Shown here: piece by piece, positions 26,169 to 29,182 of the stretch
How positions within the stretch are numbered: the stretch's first letter is position 1
Layout of the letters: each line of letters starts with the position of its first letter
From: a virus
Taxonomy: Duplodnaviria > Heunggongvirae > Uroviricota > Caudoviricetes
Strand: one strand, 5' to 3'
IMG/VR virus record: IMGVR_UViG_2913177423_000001
Coordinates: 19,415 to 83,414 of that record
DNA length: 64,000 nt
The notes under the pieces: generated by a model
Told to the model about the DNA's origin: nothing
What the model saw: only the letters and a program-made list of their open reading frames with translations
Databases searched by the model: none
Program-made: the position numbers and the translations under genes

Positions 26169-26747
26169 ATGCAGAGACAGAGTTATTGGGAGAAACAGAG
26201 ACAAAAAGCCATGCAAAAACTGGCTGATCCGGAATGGCGGGAAGAGCAAAGGGCAAAACGTCTTCAGCAGGCTCAACGCCAGCAGCAACGCGCAAGGGAA
26301 AAAGCCGCATCGCCTGAATATCGTCAAAAGAAACTTGAAAAAGTGAGGCAAAGTGAACAGCGCAGAAGAGAGAGGGCGGCGTCAGCCCTCCCCAAAAAAA
26401 CGCGCCCGTCACGCGGATTAAAAGGGAGATCACTCACAGCAGAAGAGCGCCGGATACAGGAGGCTATAGGCAAACTCCCCTGTATTGCCTGCCATCTTCA
26501 CGGGAAGCATAGCCCTGTCGTATCTCTCCACCACATATTTGGCAGAACGGCTAAAGATGCCCATAAATACGTTCTCCCTTTGTGTAAATGGCACCACCAG
26601 CACGCAGCGCCAGCAGAGATCCGCGAACAATATCCCTGGTTGGTTCCTGTTCATGCTGATGGAAAAATAGGCGGGAAAGCAGATTTTATACGGCACAATG
26701 CCGAAGAGATGACGCTCTATCAGACGGTGCAAGAAATGGTGAATTAA
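26169..26747 (+). CDS. ref: Ref-like HNH endonuclease (recombination enhancement function)
   Basis: basic/Gln-rich N-terminal half; C-terminal HNH-like CIACHLHGKHSPVVSLHHI ... LPLCKWHHQ; operator upstream as for P1 ref. Confidence 0.7.
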   Translation: MQRQSYWEKQRQKAMQKLADPEWREEQRAKRLQQAQRQQQRAREKAASPEYRQKKLEKVRQSEQRRRERAASALPKKTRPSRGLKGRSLTAEERRIQEAIGKLPCIACHLHGKHSPVVSLHHIFGRTAKDAHKYVLPLCKWHHQHAAPAEIREQYPWLVPVHADGKIGGKADFIRHNAEEMTLYQTVQEMVN

Positions 26748-26763: not shown

Positions 26764-27078
26764 GTTGAGTTTGAAATTTACTGATTGTACATTTTGATTA
26801 GATTGGTTCACCGCTCGACGCAACGAGACAAATCCTCAAGGATTTCGTATGATTGCCAATGTCATAGTTATGGCAGCGCAATACAGGTGGCTAAAAGCCC
26901 CCGTTGACTCACGGTGTTCCAACCTGTATTGCGCCGCCACCAGACCGTGGAACAGTCTGTGACGGCTTCGAAAGCAAGGAGTCACTATGAACAATTACAA
27001 ACTTTTCCCATCACTCACCGTCTACTCACGCAATAACCTGCGTTCTTTGCTCCCATCAAAACTGGAGGGAGTATCAAA

Positions 27079-27246
27079 ATGACCGTTCGCTACCTGAATT
27101 ATCAAATCCAGAACATCACTGGCGGTTGCTATGACTGGTTTGTCACTCTTGGTAAAGAAGTGATCACCGGGAAGCTGGATGAAGTGAAAGCTAAAGCAAT
27201 GGCCTACGCCTGCAAGCAAGCCCAAAAGAAGAAAAGAAAAGCATAA
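27079..27246 (+). CDS. hypothetical small basic protein (55 aa)
   Basis: GGAGGGAG RBS 7 nt upstream; MTVRYLNYQIQNITGGCYDWFVTLGKE...KKKRKA; below ORF-track cutoff. Confidence 0.35.
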   Translation: MTVRYLNYQIQNITGGCYDWFVTLGKEVITGKLDEVKAKAMAYACKQAQKKKRKA

Positions 27247-27289
27247 GAAAACACACTGTTGCGCCCTGGCATTATCGTGGGGTATATTT

Positions 27290-27425
27290 CTACGGCACCT
27301 TAGAAAAACGGGTGCCGGGATTGGTCTCCCGGTAATGTCAAAGGCGACACATAGACGCCGCAAGCGTCTTTTTTGTTGTCGGCGCACTCGCACACCTATC
27401 AATGGTGGGCTGTGTGGTGGCTTCC
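27290..27425 (+). ncRNA. candidate C4-like antisense regulatory RNA in immI-like leader
   Basis: TTGGTCT (27327) and GTGGGCTGTGTGG (27399) complementary to AGACCAA and CCACACAGTCCAC 60-80 nt upstream of icd-like RBS; hairpins and T-run at 27352-27378. Confidence 0.25.
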
Positions 27426-27538
27426 TCGGAAGCGCCGGTTCCCTTTGACGCCGGTAAGACCAACTCCACACAGTCCACCGCCAGTAAGATTGGTCTCTTC
27501 GGCGGTGGTATCGTTCACTGTCAAAGGAGGCTGCCAAT

Positions 27539-27754
27539 ATGGCTACTACCCCTACCCCAACTCATTCTGAATTTATCTGGCGTTTCTATTCCTGCCAAAA
27601 ACACCTGTATATCTGCGTAATGGCTGCTACCGAAGCAGAAGCTCGCTCATACCTTCCTGATACTCCCTGCATTTTTGCTGCCCGCTTCACTCTTGATGCG
27701 ATGGAGATCCTCAATTACTGGAATCTGCCGATGAACTGCGTGGAGGTGCACTGA
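27539..27754 (+). CDS. icd: Icd-like cell division inhibitor
   Basis: 71 aa; pattern FIWRFYSC ... ATEAEARSYLP ... CIFAARF; AGGAGG RBS; stop overlaps ant start. Confidence 0.55.
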   Translation: MATTPTPTHSEFIWRFYSCQKHLYICVMAATEAEARSYLPDTPCIFAARFTLDAMEILNYWNLPMNCVEVH

Positions 27755-28680
27755 TGAATCTGTCCATCTCTCAAAAAGCGACAATGACCAGCATTGAGAT
27801 CGCGGAGCTGGTAGGTAAGCGTCCTGATAACGTTAAACGCACCATTGAACACCTAGCGGAACGGGGCGTAATATCTTTTCCTCAAATTGAGGAAAAGCCC
27901 ACCGCAGGGCGCCCGGCGAGCTATTACGTCTTCGAAGGCGAGCAAGGCAAGCGCGACAGCATTATTGTCGTCGCACAGCTTTCTCCTGAATTTACCGCCC
28001 GGCTGGTGGACCGCTGGCGCGAACTGGAGAATGCCAGGGGACCGTTAAAAACAAAGGCCGAAATTCTGGCTGAAATGGCGCAAATGCATCTTGAGCATGA
28101 ACGCAGGATCAACGCCGTAAATGCCCAGGTAGCCGAAGTTTCGGCACAAGTGTCCAGGGTCGCTGAAACCGTCGAGCAAATAAAGAAAGGCAATATGCCG
28201 GAAGGTTACATTGGCTACCGCCAGCTGGCGGCGAAATGTGGCTTGACTGAAGCCAAATGTCGCAACCTGGTCAACGCTTACCGTATCCCCACCGATACGC
28301 ATGAGTTTTTAACGCCCGATGGTTTGCTTGCCCGACGCTCCATTGTGGCCCTGGCCCCCTTCCGGAAAGCCTTTAAGCAGGTTATGTCGGAGGCCGAACC
28401 ACGTAATAAACGCTGGTATCATCCAAAAATGGGCCTCTTTCAGGCAATCCACCATCCTTTACCGAAAATCCCAAAAGATAATCTGTCACTGCATACAGCC
28501 AGAGAGAAGATCAGAAGTGGATATGCAACGGTATGCCGTCGTGCCTCATGGTCTGAAGGTGTATGGGTATGGCCCGAAGGCGGATCAAGGAAGCACTGGC
28601 GCACTATCCGAGATGGTAAAATTCATGCTATTGATTTAGCGCCAGAGGATATGGTTGCTATGGACTGGATTGTTAGTTAA
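27754..28680 (+). CDS. ant: antirepressor (Rha/Ant family N-terminal domain)
   Basis: N-terminus MTSIEIAELVGKRPDNVKRTIEHLAERGVI typical of Rha-type antirepressors. Confidence 0.7.
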   Translation: MNLSISQKATMTSIEIAELVGKRPDNVKRTIEHLAERGVISFPQIEEKPTAGRPASYYVFEGEQGKRDSIIVVAQLSPEFTARLVDRWRELENARGPLKTKAEILAEMAQMHLEHERRINAVNAQVAEVSAQVSRVAETVEQIKKGNMPEGYIGYRQLAAKCGLTEAKCRNLVNAYRIPTDTHEFLTPDGLLARRSIVALAPFRKAFKQVMSEAEPRNKRWYHPKMGLFQAIHHPLPKIPKDNLSLHTAREKIRSGYATVCRRASWSEGVWVWPEGGSRKHWRTIRDGKIHAIDLAPEDMVAMDWIVS

Positions 28681-28687
28681 TTACTGT

Positions 28688-28711
28688 TGCCCCGGCCTGT
28701 CCGGGGCTTTA
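28688..28711 (+). terminator. intrinsic terminator after ant
   Basis: hairpin GCCCCGGCC-TGT-CCGGGGC plus TTT. Confidence 0.5.
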
Positions 28712-28739
28712 ACTGCTAAATAATCGGATTCTCCGCACG

Positions 28740-29051
28740 ATGAAGAAAATAGATTTCACTTACTCTGCCGCCACAGTCCAGCGACGTTTCAGTCTCATAA
28801 GGGAAGTGGAACTATCAAAAACCGGGTATCAGGTTCTGTTGGATGAAGAGTTATCACTGATGGTAATAGCAGAAAAATTGGCTATGCCGAATGATCGGCA
28901 CAAAGTCATTGCAAGCCTTGACCTGGTAACAAACAGATACTGGGAAGCAGAGGGACCACATGGAGATGGTGTAATACGCGAAATGATTGAACAAGCGACG
29001 CCCCTACGCTATCGGATACGAAATGAAGTCACCATAATTGAAAGGTCTTAA
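28740..29051 (+). CDS. hypothetical protein (103 aa)
   Basis: ATG ORF, no recognised domain. Confidence 0.5.
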   Translation: MKKIDFTYSAATVQRRFSLIREVELSKTGYQVLLDEELSLMVIAEKLAMPNDRHKVIASLDLVTNRYWEAEGPHGDGVIREMIEQATPLRYRIRNEVTIIERS

Positions 29052-29182
29052 CGATAGTCTGCCACGAATAGTAACTTCCACTGCCTTAAGTTATTTAATT
29101 GCATTACAAAGTGTAAATTAGTAATATTAGAGTCTCACACAGCACTATAACTATATGTTTTTTATGTAAAAGGACGATAATT

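What the first reader, a model, noticed from the sequence alone, without database searches (positions are those of the whole stretch)
27290..28680. immI-like locus with a candidate C4-type antisense RNA
Upstream of the icd-like and ant genes, the leader contains TTGGTCT and GTGGGCTGTGTGG, which are complementary to AGACCAA and CCACACAGTCCAC located 60-80 nt before the icd RBS. P1 C4 RNA represses icd-ant translation through two such pairings. A hairpin plus T-run at 27352-27378 could define an RNA end.
Basis: partly seen in the sequence, partly recalled or inferred. Interest (0 to 1): 0.5.

Follow-up and report, generated by a model that had tools for sequence, protein, structure and literature searches.

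The report
P1-type C4 antisense RNA immunity switch

Summary
The locus is a P1-type immI module. Rfam places a C4 antisense RNA at 27398-27485 (73.7 bits, threshold 45) and an isrK-type leader RNA at 27295-27374 (61 bits, threshold 50). These lie upstream of an Icd homologue (64% identical to P1 Icd) and a translationally coupled antirepressor.

- The 13-nt complementarity (27405-17 with 27466-78) is the closing stem of C4 itself, not a regulator-target duplex.
- AGACCAA (27457-63) is C4's a' recognition element. It matches TTGGTCT twice: a1 in the leader (27321-27) and a2 (27490-96).
It matches GTCAAAGG at b1 (27337-44) and at b2 (27520-27), which overlaps the icd Shine-Dalgarno.
- The terminator ends the upstream leader RNA, not C4.

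About 55 related loci carry different a and b sequences, and these co-vary at all three sites. Phage D6 (87% identical overall) carries a different cassette. The same allele occurs in at least 13 sequenced plasmids. This is known biology and of low interest. Side observations are a second C4-like module upstream and "ash family protein" annotations lying on C4.

The parts
27259..27288 (+). Predicted sigma-70 promoter: -35 TTGCGC at 27259-64, an 18-nt spacer, and -10 TATATT at 27283-88. The predicted transcription start is about 27295.
   Evidence: Read from the sequence. It aligns column for column with the annotated constitutive P1 promoter P1c4/P51b (TTGACC ... TATAGT) in alignment A2. It is identical in D6. 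It matches only 8 of 12 consensus positions, so the simple scan did not list it. Inferred, not shown.
27295..27374 (+). isrK-type / c4-a1b1-type leader RNA. It has a 5' hairpin, a second hairpin that presents a1 in its loop, a b1 linker and an intrinsic terminator.
   Evidence: Rfam RF01394 isrK scores 61 bits against a threshold of 50, with a weak c4-a1b1 RF03163 hit at 27282-27335. The P1 a1/b1 leader matches both models.
27321..27327 (+). a1 box UUGGUCU, complementary to a'. It lies in the loop of the second leader hairpin.
   Evidence: It sits at the position homologous to the annotated P1 a1.
27337..27344 (+). b1 box GUCAAAGG, complementary to b'.
   Evidence: It lies 16 nt after a1, compared with 14 nt in P1.
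27353..27375 (+). Intrinsic terminator of the leader RNA: stem 27353-27369 followed by TTTTTT.
   Evidence: Terminator scan. It corresponds to the terminal hairpin of the isrK model.
27404..27482 (+). Predicted mature C4 antisense RNA of about 79 nt (Rfam hit 27398-27485). Closing stem 27403-19 / 27464-80, hairpin 1 at 27420-33, hairpin 2 at 27434-55, junction 27456-63, then CCA at 27481-83.
   Evidence: RF01695 scores 73.7 bits against a threshold of 45. MFE -44.1 kcal/mol, z -5.4. The consensus structure has 18 of 24 pairs with compensatory changes in 43 homologues. The ends are inferred from the annotated 77-nt P1 c4.
27442..27449 (+). b' recognition element CCUUUGAC, in the loop of C4 hairpin 2.
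   Evidence: It corresponds to UCACUAAC of P1 C4.
27457..27463 (+). a' recognition element AGACCAA, in the single-stranded junction of C4.
   Evidence: It corresponds to CUGUCAA of P1 C4.
27490..27496 (+). a2 target box UUGGUCU in the icd leader, 8 nt after the predicted C4 3' end.
   Evidence: The position is as in P1 and in about 55 related loci.
27520..27530 (+). b2 target box GUCAAAGG (27520-27), overlapping the icd Shine-Dalgarno AGGAGG (27525-30).
   Evidence: The a2-to-b2 spacing is 30 nt, against 29 nt in P1. In related loci the b2 match ends in GGA of the Shine-Dalgarno.
27539..27754 (+). icd-like gene (71 aa).
   Evidence: NCBIfam NF033153 phage_ICD_like at 2e-13. 64% identical to P1 Icd. 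PHROG 1426.
27754..28680 (+). Antirepressor gene (308 aa). Its start overlaps the icd stop (TGATG), which suggests translational coupling.
   Evidence: PHROG 63 'anti-repressor Ant' at 4e-64. Pfam Phage_pRha N-terminal domain. It is not homologous to P1 Ant1. D6 orf82 is annotated as Ant.
26866..26984 (+). Second, weaker C4-like module. The RNA is at 26866-26944, an a2-like box UGGAACA at 26948-54, and a b2-like box GAGUCA at 26979-84 on the Shine-Dalgarno of a 31-aa ORF (ATG 26987). A 55-aa ORF follows at 27079-27246.
   Evidence: RF01695 scores 39.7 bits, below the threshold of 45, with E 2.3e-5. Fold z -5.3. It is conserved in D6 and in a Shigella plasmid, where an Icd-like gene follows it.

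Best explanation
The region is a P1-type immI operon of a D6-like plasmid prophage.

1. A moderate constitutive promoter (about 27259-27288) starts a transcript at about 27295.
2. Most transcripts probably stop at the intrinsic terminator (27353-27375). This yields an isrK-type leader RNA of about 80 nt that displays the a1 and b1 boxes.
3. Read-through transcripts contain a tRNA-like C4 precursor. This is cut out, by RNase P at the 5' end in P1, to give an RNA of about 79 nt (27404-27482).
4. C4 uses two exposed elements: a' AGACCAA in its junction and b' CCUUUGAC in its second hairpin loop. They pair with a2 (27490-96) and b2 (27520-27) in the icd-ant mRNA.
5. b2 overlaps the icd Shine-Dalgarno, so icd is not translated. 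The antirepressor gene is coupled to icd (TGATG overlap), and in P1 its transcription depends on icd translation. Antirepressor is therefore not made and lysogeny is kept.
6. The a and b sequences set the immunity specificity. This element carries a cassette different from phage D6.

Shown here: family membership, structure, the complementarities, their co-variation, and the gene content. Inferred from P1 and Gifsy-1 work: transcription start, termination and read-through, processing, and repression.
For: - Rfam C4 scores 73.7 bits and isrK 61 bits, both above their gathering thresholds.
- The C4 fold has z -5.4. In an alignment of 43 homologues, 18 of 24 pairs show compensatory changes.
- The layout matches the annotated P1 order P-a1-b1-c4-a2-b2-icd-ant element by element, with near-identical spacings.
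- Window and D6 are 90-100% identical on both sides of the cassette but only 47-62% identical across 27360-27520. In D6, a1/a'/a2 and b1/b'/b2 are all changed together (TTGAGAC and GCAAAAGG).
- In 75 candidate loci from viral contigs, the cognate a2 7-mer is present in 57, against 0.1% of non-cognate pairings. The figures are a1 58 of 75 against 2.3%, b2 of 7 nt or more 51 of 75 against 1.9%, and b1 46 of 75 against 6.7%.
- Icd is 64% identical to P1 Icd and matches NF033153. The downstream gene matches PHROG 63 anti-repressor.
- The literature describes C4 as a trans-acting repressor of Ant synthesis and an RNase P substrate (PMC8546580, PMC11143913, PMC12197685).
- In Gifsy-1 the RNA of about 80 nt downstream of isrK arises by processing of read-through from the isrK promoter (PMC4825925).
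- c4, icd and antirepressor homologues are reported in a D6-like plasmid (PMC6799933).
Against: - There are no expression or processing data for this element.
- Each short pairing alone is not exceptional in 64 kb (ranks 48-88 of 63,984 windows).
- The promoter matches only 8 of 12 consensus positions and was not listed by the scan.
- The terminator sits between the promoter and C4, so the supply of C4 depends on unmeasured read-through.
- The antirepressor is not homologous to P1 Ant1.
- No P1-type C1 operator is present anywhere in the window. The link to the primary repressor therefore differs from P1 or is unknown.
Confidence: 0.85

Rival explanations
1. Anti-antisense (decoy) reading of the leader. 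The short isrK-type RNA (27295-27374) is more than a by-product. Through a1 and b1 it binds the a' and b' elements of C4, either in trans or in cis within the read-through precursor. It thereby relieves repression of icd-ant. The terminator read-through ratio and the leader level would then set the switch. This adds to the best explanation rather than replacing it.
For: - a1 and b1 are exact copies of a2 and b2 and co-vary with a' and b' in most loci.
- a1 sits in a hairpin loop and b1 in a weakly structured linker.
- The MFE of the read-through transcript pairs a1:a' and b1:b' in cis.
- In Gifsy-1, IsrK supplied in trans raises anrP translation more than 100-fold. The compensatory mutant pairs G28/C162 and G31/C159 (PMC4825925) fall exactly on a1 UUGGCGU (nt 26-32) and a' ACGCCAA (nt 158-164) in loci with the same spacing (L077, L105).
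- isrK lies directly upstream of C4 in 10 of 17 loci.
Against: - The Gifsy-1 sequence itself was not obtained, so the mapping is by position only.
- The Gifsy-1 authors explain their data by mRNA refolding and orf45 translation, not by titration of a C4-like RNA.
- Nothing here measures stoichiometry.
- The second C4-like module has no a1/b1 leader, so a decoy is not obligatory.
Confidence: 0.4
2. The leader RNA ending at the 27352-27378 terminator is the antisense regulator. It pairs through TTGGTCT and GTGGGCTGTGTGG with AGACCAA and CCACACAGTCCAC in the mRNA, 60-80 nt before the icd ribosome site.
For: The complementarities exist. TTGGTCT in the leader is truly complementary to AGACCAA.
Against: - GTGGGCTGTGTGG (27405-17) lies downstream of that terminator, so it is not part of the terminated leader RNA.
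- Both 13-mers lie inside one RNA that matches the C4 covariance model, where they form the closing stem. The experimentally defined 77-nt P1 C4 contains both arms.
- Pairing 60-80 nt upstream of the Shine-Dalgarno would not occlude the ribosome site, whereas b2 does.
Confidence: 0.03
3. The stretch 27402-27520 encodes a small 'Ash family' protein, as PGAP annotates in related plasmids, and the RNA features are incidental.
For: - An ATG-initiated ORF (27402-27620) overlaps C4 and gives a weak Pfam Phage_ASH hit (E 0.0034, below threshold).
- Related plasmids carry a CDS called 'ash family protein' at this spot.
- The Gifsy-1 work reports effects of orf45 start-codon mutations.
Against: - Across 43 homologues the ORF starting at the conserved AUGG ranges from 14 to more than 130 aa and is absent in 5. 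The hairpin-loop length varies by amounts that are not multiples of 3, so the frame is not kept.
- Substitutions are compensatory for RNA pairing.
- No Shine-Dalgarno precedes 27402.
- In the window the ORF runs out of frame into icd.
Confidence: 0.03

Closest known systems
Phage P1/P7 immI operon (c4-icd-ant1/2; C4 antisense RNA, Rfam RF01695)
   Same: - The order of parts is the same: promoter, a1, b1, hairpin with T-run, C4, a2, b2 on the icd Shine-Dalgarno, icd, and a coupled antirepressor gene. The spacings are near-identical.
- C4 has the same three-helix fold.
- Icd is 64% identical.
- The promoter aligns with P1c4/P51b.
   Different: - The a and b specificity sequences differ: UUGGUCU/GUCAAAGG here against UUGACAG/GUUAGUG in P1.
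- The antirepressor is a Rha-domain, PHROG 63 protein unrelated to P1 Ant1/Ant2.
- No P1-type C1 operator (Op51) or second promoter was found.
- The flanking genes differ: ref and small ORFs upstream and a pmgF-like gene downstream, instead of sim and kilA.
Phage D6 and D6-like plasmid prophages (for example pYU39_89); ImmI-related region
   Same: The window is 87% identical to D6 across 27075-29100 with the same gene order. c4, icd and antirepressor homologues, plus a second antisense-RNA region, are reported for this group (PMC6799933).
   Different: The C4 cassette (about 27320-27530) is only 47-62% identical to that of D6 and carries other a and b alleles. The window's allele is the minority type: 13 of 100 matching PLSDB plasmids are at least 99% identical, and 15 E. 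coli complete genomes carry it.
Gifsy-1 IsrK / orf45 (STnc1160) / AnrP of Salmonella (Rfam RF01394 isrK)
   Same: The leader at 27295-27374 is a full-length isrK match with the same terminator. In Gifsy-1, read-through gives a processed RNA of about 80 nt and an antirepressor-like gene follows.
   Different: Here a separate icd gene with its own Shine-Dalgarno takes the place of 'orf45' as the coupled upstream reading frame. The Gifsy-1 study describes activation by IsrK and does not mention C4. Hfq binding was not tested here.
c4-a1b1 motif (Rfam RF03163, clan CL00128)
   Same: It describes the a1 and b1 copies upstream of c4. The P1 leader matches it at 51 bits and also matches isrK at 35 bits. 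In locus L077 both models hit the same element.
   Different: The window's leader scores only 17.6 bits on this model and is captured by isrK instead. In the search output isrK is listed without a clan.
Phage P22 immI (sar antisense RNA controlling ant)
   Same: The logic is the same: a small antisense RNA blocks antirepressor translation to keep lysogeny (PMC12197685).
   Different: Different RNA family and geometry. sar is transcribed from the opposite strand across the ant start, and there is no tRNA-like processed RNA, no a and b boxes, and no icd. This is a functional analogy only.

Membership tests
C4 antisense RNA (RF01695) / P1-type immI | Match to the curated covariance model above its gathering score | tested here: met
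   73.7 bits against 45, full length 1-87, at 27398-27485.
C4 antisense RNA (RF01695) / P1-type immI | tRNA-like fold: a long closing stem enclosing two hairpins, supported by co-variation | tested here: met
   MFE -44.1 kcal/mol, z -5.4. 18 of 24 consensus pairs show compensatory changes in 43 sequences that include the window.
C4 antisense RNA (RF01695) / P1-type immI | Two exposed elements (a', b') complementary to a2 and b2 just downstream, with b2 covering the ribosome site of the first gene | tested here: met
   a' at 27457-63 pairs with a2 at 27490-96. b' at 27442-49 pairs with b2 at 27520-27, which overlaps AGGAGG at 27525-30. The same geometry occurs in about 55 loci with different sequences.
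C4 antisense RNA (RF01695) / P1-type immI | Duplicate a1 and b1 boxes upstream of c4 | tested here: met
   a1 at 27321-27 and b1 at 27337-44, homologous in position to the annotated P1 a1 and b1.
C4 antisense RNA (RF01695) / P1-type immI | Downstream icd homologue followed by a coupled antirepressor gene | tested here: met
   Icd matches NF033153 at 2e-13 and is 64% identical to P1 Icd. The icd stop and ant start overlap as TGATG. The downstream gene matches PHROG 63 anti-repressor.
C4 antisense RNA (RF01695) / P1-type immI | Antirepressor homologous to P1 Ant1/Ant2 | tested here: not met
   BLASTP against P1 Ant1 gives E 0.025 over 67 residues, with no real similarity. The cargo gene is a different antirepressor family. 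This is not defining for the RNA family: Stx phages, APSE and Gifsy-1 also carry other antirepressors.
C4 antisense RNA (RF01695) / P1-type immI | Processing from a co-transcript to about 77 nt by RNase P, and repression in trans | not testable with these tools
   Known for P1/P7 from the literature. Here only the homologous ends (27404 and 27482) and a CCA after the stem can be read.
C4 antisense RNA (RF01695) / P1-type immI | C1-controlled operator and promoter (Op51/P51a) upstream, as in P1 | tested here: not met
   The P1 operator consensus with up to 3 mismatches gives 0 matches in 64 kb. The D6 repressor may use another operator, so this test is weak.
isrK Hfq-binding RNA (RF01394) | Match above gathering score, including the 3' intrinsic terminator | tested here: met
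   61 bits against 50, full length, at 27295-27374. The terminator was found independently.
isrK Hfq-binding RNA (RF01394) | Hfq binding and trans-activation of the downstream antirepressor-like gene | not testable with these tools
   Experimental properties of the Salmonella RNA (PMC4825925).
c4-a1b1 motif (RF03163) | Match above gathering score | tested here: not met
   17.6 bits against 46.7 at 27282-27335. The same element is captured by isrK. P1 and L077 show that the two models overlap on one element.

The most novel reading that the evidence does not exclude
The isrK-type leader and C4 are two halves of one three-part RNA switch. The leader carries a1 and b1, C4 carries a' and b', and the mRNA carries a2 and b2. 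In this reading the terminated leader RNA is the dedicated anti-antisense decoy for C4.

This would merge Rfam isrK (RF01394) with the c4-a1b1 motif. It would also reinterpret the Gifsy-1 IsrK/STnc1160/AnrP system as a P1-type immI module, with induction working through the leader:C4 ratio. The papers I could search treat IsrK and c4 as unrelated systems.
Probability: 0.4. Interest if true: 0.45.

Novelty: already known. Interest (0 to 1): 0.17.

Why it matters
- The switch decides whether the plasmid prophage makes antirepressor. Its a and b sequences define a secondary immunity specificity.
- The window carries a different cassette from phage D6, so the two should not cross-repress each other's antirepressor. 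This is relevant to co-residence and competition among D6-like plasmids in E. coli and Salmonella.
- For annotation, C4 and its leader are unannotated in the near-identical public plasmids. They are instead covered by "hypothetical" or "ash family protein" CDS calls.
- The observation that isrK and c4-a1b1 describe one element offers a simple way to unify two literatures, but it is not a surprise at the level of mechanism.

Tried and rejected
- **Gifsy-1 sequence.** I scanned genome contigs for the Gifsy-1 isrK with an 18-mer guessed from the Rfam consensus. The link to Gifsy-1 therefore rests on nucleotide numbering in the paper.
- **Primary papers.** The P1 papers and the D6 genome paper are not in the held library.
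- **Literature search.** One search was wasted because "immI" matched "immigration".
- **C1 operator.** A search for a P1-type C1 operator found none.
- **Second icd or C4-icd copy.** A BLAST of the region against the window found none beyond the sub-threshold C4-like RNA at 26866.
- **Stronger a' and b' duplexes elsewhere in the window.** Sites at about 52345, 6150 and 59697 lie inside ORFs and rely on G.U pairs, so I treat them as chance.
- **Cis hairpin in the icd leader.** The fold is not significant (z -1.6), so I did not interpret it.
- **Minus-strand ORF.** The 171-aa ORF at 27022-27537 has no family hit and overlaps the RNA genes, so I treat it as spurious.
Full report
**What is in the sequence**

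The hairpin with T-run is a clean terminator-like site, with a stem at 27353-27369 followed by TTTTTT. The ORFs downstream are a 71-aa gene at 27539-27754 and a 308-aa gene at 27754-28680. The stop of the first overlaps the start of the second as TGATG.

**What it is**

A scan of the whole window against Rfam at gathering thresholds gives two adjacent hits on the + strand. One is the isrK Hfq-binding RNA at 27295-27374 (61 bits, threshold 50). The other is the C4 antisense RNA at 27398-27485 (73.7 bits, threshold 45). Both are full length.

- The 71-aa protein matches NCBIfam phage_ICD_like (2e-13) and is 64% identical to P1 Icd.
- The 308-aa protein has a Phage_pRha N-terminal domain and matches PHROG 63 "anti-repressor Ant" at 4e-64. 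It is not related to P1 Ant1.
- The region is 87% identical to phage D6, where the two genes are annotated as Icd-like and Ant and no RNA gene is annotated.
- A paper on the D6-like plasmid pYU39_89 already reports an ImmI-related region with homologues of c4, icd and an antirepressor, plus a second antisense-RNA region (PMC6799933).

**Correcting the pairing scheme**

The stem encloses hairpin 1 (27420-33) and hairpin 2 (27434-55).

- The isolated C4 sequence folds into this shape at -44.1 kcal/mol, z -5.4.
- In an alignment of 43 homologues, RNAalifold returns the same structure, and 18 of 24 pairs show compensatory double changes.
- The annotated, experimentally defined 77-nt P1 C4 contains both arms.

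The 13-nt complementarity is therefore intramolecular.

The P1 record annotates a1 (TTGACAG) and b1 (GTTAGTGC) upstream of c4. It annotates a2 and b2 downstream, with b2 just before the icd start. The window has the same layout with different sequences:

| Element | Sequence | Position |
|---|---|---|
| a1 | UUGGUCU | 27321-27 |
| b1 | GUCAAAGG | 27337-44 |
| b' (hairpin-2 loop) | CCUUUGAC | 27442-49 |
| a' (junction) | AGACCAA | 27457-63 |
| a2 | UUGGUCU | 27490-96 |
| b2 | GUCAAAGG | 27520-27 |

b2 overlaps the Shine-Dalgarno AGGAGG at 27525-30, which lies 8 nt before the icd ATG. The a2-to-b2 spacing is 30 nt, against 29 in P1.

In fact it ends the upstream leader.

**Is it more than chance?**

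The 10-mer GATTGGTCTC occurs exactly twice in 64 kb, against 0.1 expected. The 9-mer TGTCAAAGG occurring twice is less striking, since 14 of 100 shuffles reach 2. Each short duplex ranks only 48th to 88th among about 64,000 windows by energy. The argument therefore rests on comparative data.

- A pattern scan of viral contigs for the conserved hairpin-2 and junction frame, with the a' and b' positions left free, returned 120 stretches, of which about 55 are true C4 loci.
- Among 75 loci that pass a structural filter, the reverse complement of each locus's own a' 7-mer is found just after its C4 in 57 and upstream in 58. For non-cognate pairings the rates are 0.1% and 2.3%.
- Matches of at least 7 nt to the hairpin-2 loop are found at the b2 site in 51 and at the b1 site in 46. 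For non-cognate pairings the rates are 1.9% and 6.7%.
- Among the loci that carry cognate a2/b2 boxes there are at least ten distinct a alleles and at least twenty distinct b loops. a and b assort independently: L056 shares the window's a allele and L033 shares its b allele, but none in that sample has both.
- Against D6, identity is 90-100% on both sides but 47-62% across 27360-27520. All six boxes and both C4 stems are changed in a compensatory way. This is what a swapped immunity-specificity cassette looks like.

The allele is not unique. It is at least 99% identical in 13 PLSDB plasmids and 15 complete E. coli genomes, all D6-like plasmids of about 90 kb.

**The leader**

- The P1 a1/b1 leader matches Rfam c4-a1b1 (51 bits) and also, weakly, isrK (35 bits).
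- The window's leader matches isrK strongly and c4-a1b1 weakly.
- In 17 viral loci with C4, isrK lies directly upstream in 10 and c4-a1b1 in 2. In L077 the two models overlap on the same element.

isrK and c4-a1b1 are therefore two descriptions of one leader. In the search output isrK is listed without a clan.

The sequence upstream (TTGCGC, 18 nt, TATATT; 27259-27288) aligns with the annotated constitutive P1 promoter P1c4/P51b and is identical in D6. It would start transcription at about 27295, the first base of the isrK match. No P1-type C1 operator is present in the window.

**Mechanism**

The best-supported reading is the P1 mechanism. C4 is cut from the read-through transcript and pairs through a' and b' with a2 and b2. 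This occludes the icd ribosome site and so shuts off the coupled antirepressor gene. For the origin of the processed RNA by read-through from the isrK promoter. I put this at 0.85.

The role of the leader is less certain.

- a1 sits in a hairpin loop.
- The MFE of the whole read-through transcript pairs a1:a' and b1:b' in cis.
- In Gifsy-1, IsrK supplied in trans activates the downstream antirepressor-like gene more than 100-fold. The compensatory mutant pairs there (G28/C162 and G31/C159) fall exactly on a1 and a' of the common UUGGCGU/ACGCCAA allele in loci with the same spacing.

This suggests that the leader acts as an anti-antisense decoy for C4 (about 0.4). I could not obtain the Gifsy-1 sequence to confirm the mapping.

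**Rejected readings**

- A protein-coding reading of the C4 stretch is also unlikely. PGAP calls an "ash family protein" there in related plasmids, and there is a weak Pfam Phage_ASH hit. However, the ORF starting at the conserved AUGG varies from 14 to more than 130 aa, is missing in 5 of 43 homologues, and does not keep its frame.

**Other observations**

- A second C4-like RNA lies at 26866-26944. It scores 39.7 bits, below threshold, with E 2.3e-5, and has fold z -5.3. It has its own a2-like box (UGGAACA, 26948-54) and a b2-like box (GAGUCA, 26979-84) on the Shine-Dalgarno of a 31-aa ORF, at the canonical 31-nt spacing.
- This second module is conserved in D6. In a Shigella dysenteriae plasmid it precedes an Icd-like gene. 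It probably corresponds to the "second region" noted for pYU39_89.

**Verdict**

It is a standard, database-detectable member of a well-described system, already reported for D6-like plasmids. Interest is low. The only mildly new angle is the identity of isrK with the a1/b1 leader and what that implies for the Gifsy-1 IsrK system.

Noticed in passing
window 26866-27246: A second, weaker C4-like RNA at 26866-26944 scores 39.7 bits, below the Rfam threshold, with fold z -5.3. It has its own a2-like box (UGGAACA, 26948-54) and b2-like box (GAGUCA, 26979-84) on the Shine-Dalgarno of a 31-aa ORF, followed by a conserved 55-aa ORF (PHROG 7786). There is no a1/b1 leader. A promoter-like site at 26825-26853 lies just upstream. 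The module is conserved in D6. In a Shigella plasmid (L208) an Icd-like gene follows it instead of the 31-aa ORF.
   Followed up: partly
window 27402-27620; L123 1023-1142: PGAP annotates an 'ash family protein' CDS exactly over the C4 RNA in many D6-like plasmids. The window's overlapping ORF gives a weak Pfam Phage_ASH hit (profile positions 49-88). The ORF is not conserved in length or frame across 43 C4 homologues. At least this part of the Ash family therefore looks like a translation of a conserved RNA gene.
   Followed up: partly
L077 5157-5244; L002 1218-1312: Rfam isrK (RF01394, listed without a clan) and c4-a1b1 (RF03163, clan CL00128) hit the same element upstream of C4. They appear to be two models of one leader RNA.
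   Followed up: partly
L017 4574-4763 and 5233-5421: One viral contig carries two complete isrK-C4 modules in tandem, about 660 nt apart.
   Followed up: no
window 27800-27920: Within the antirepressor gene, a patch encoding roughly residues 16-55 (the Rha/HTH region) is only 38-65% identical to D6, while the rest of the gene is 82-97% identical. This is a second mosaic patch next to the C4 cassette.
   Followed up: no
window 27022-27537 (- strand); L001 3131-3430: A 171-aa minus-strand ORF with no family hit overlaps the leader and C4 RNA genes. D6 annotates a similar 'orf84' there. It is probably a spurious call over the RNA genes.
   Followed up: partly
L004, L006, L017, L035 and others: In many loci with the UUGGCGU allele, the ORF starting at the AUGG of C4 runs in frame through b2 into the icd-like gene (...EAAIMAT...). 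This may relate to the 'orf45' translation effects reported for Gifsy-1.
   Followed up: no
window 4398-4471, 4479-4551, 6027-6099: Three tRNA genes on the + strand of this plasmid-prophage window (Rfam tRNA, 65-68 bits).
   Followed up: no
window 26169-26747: A Ref-like RecA-dependent nuclease gene (Pfam RecA_dep_nuc, 5e-36) lies directly upstream of the two C4 modules, as in D6.
   Followed up: no
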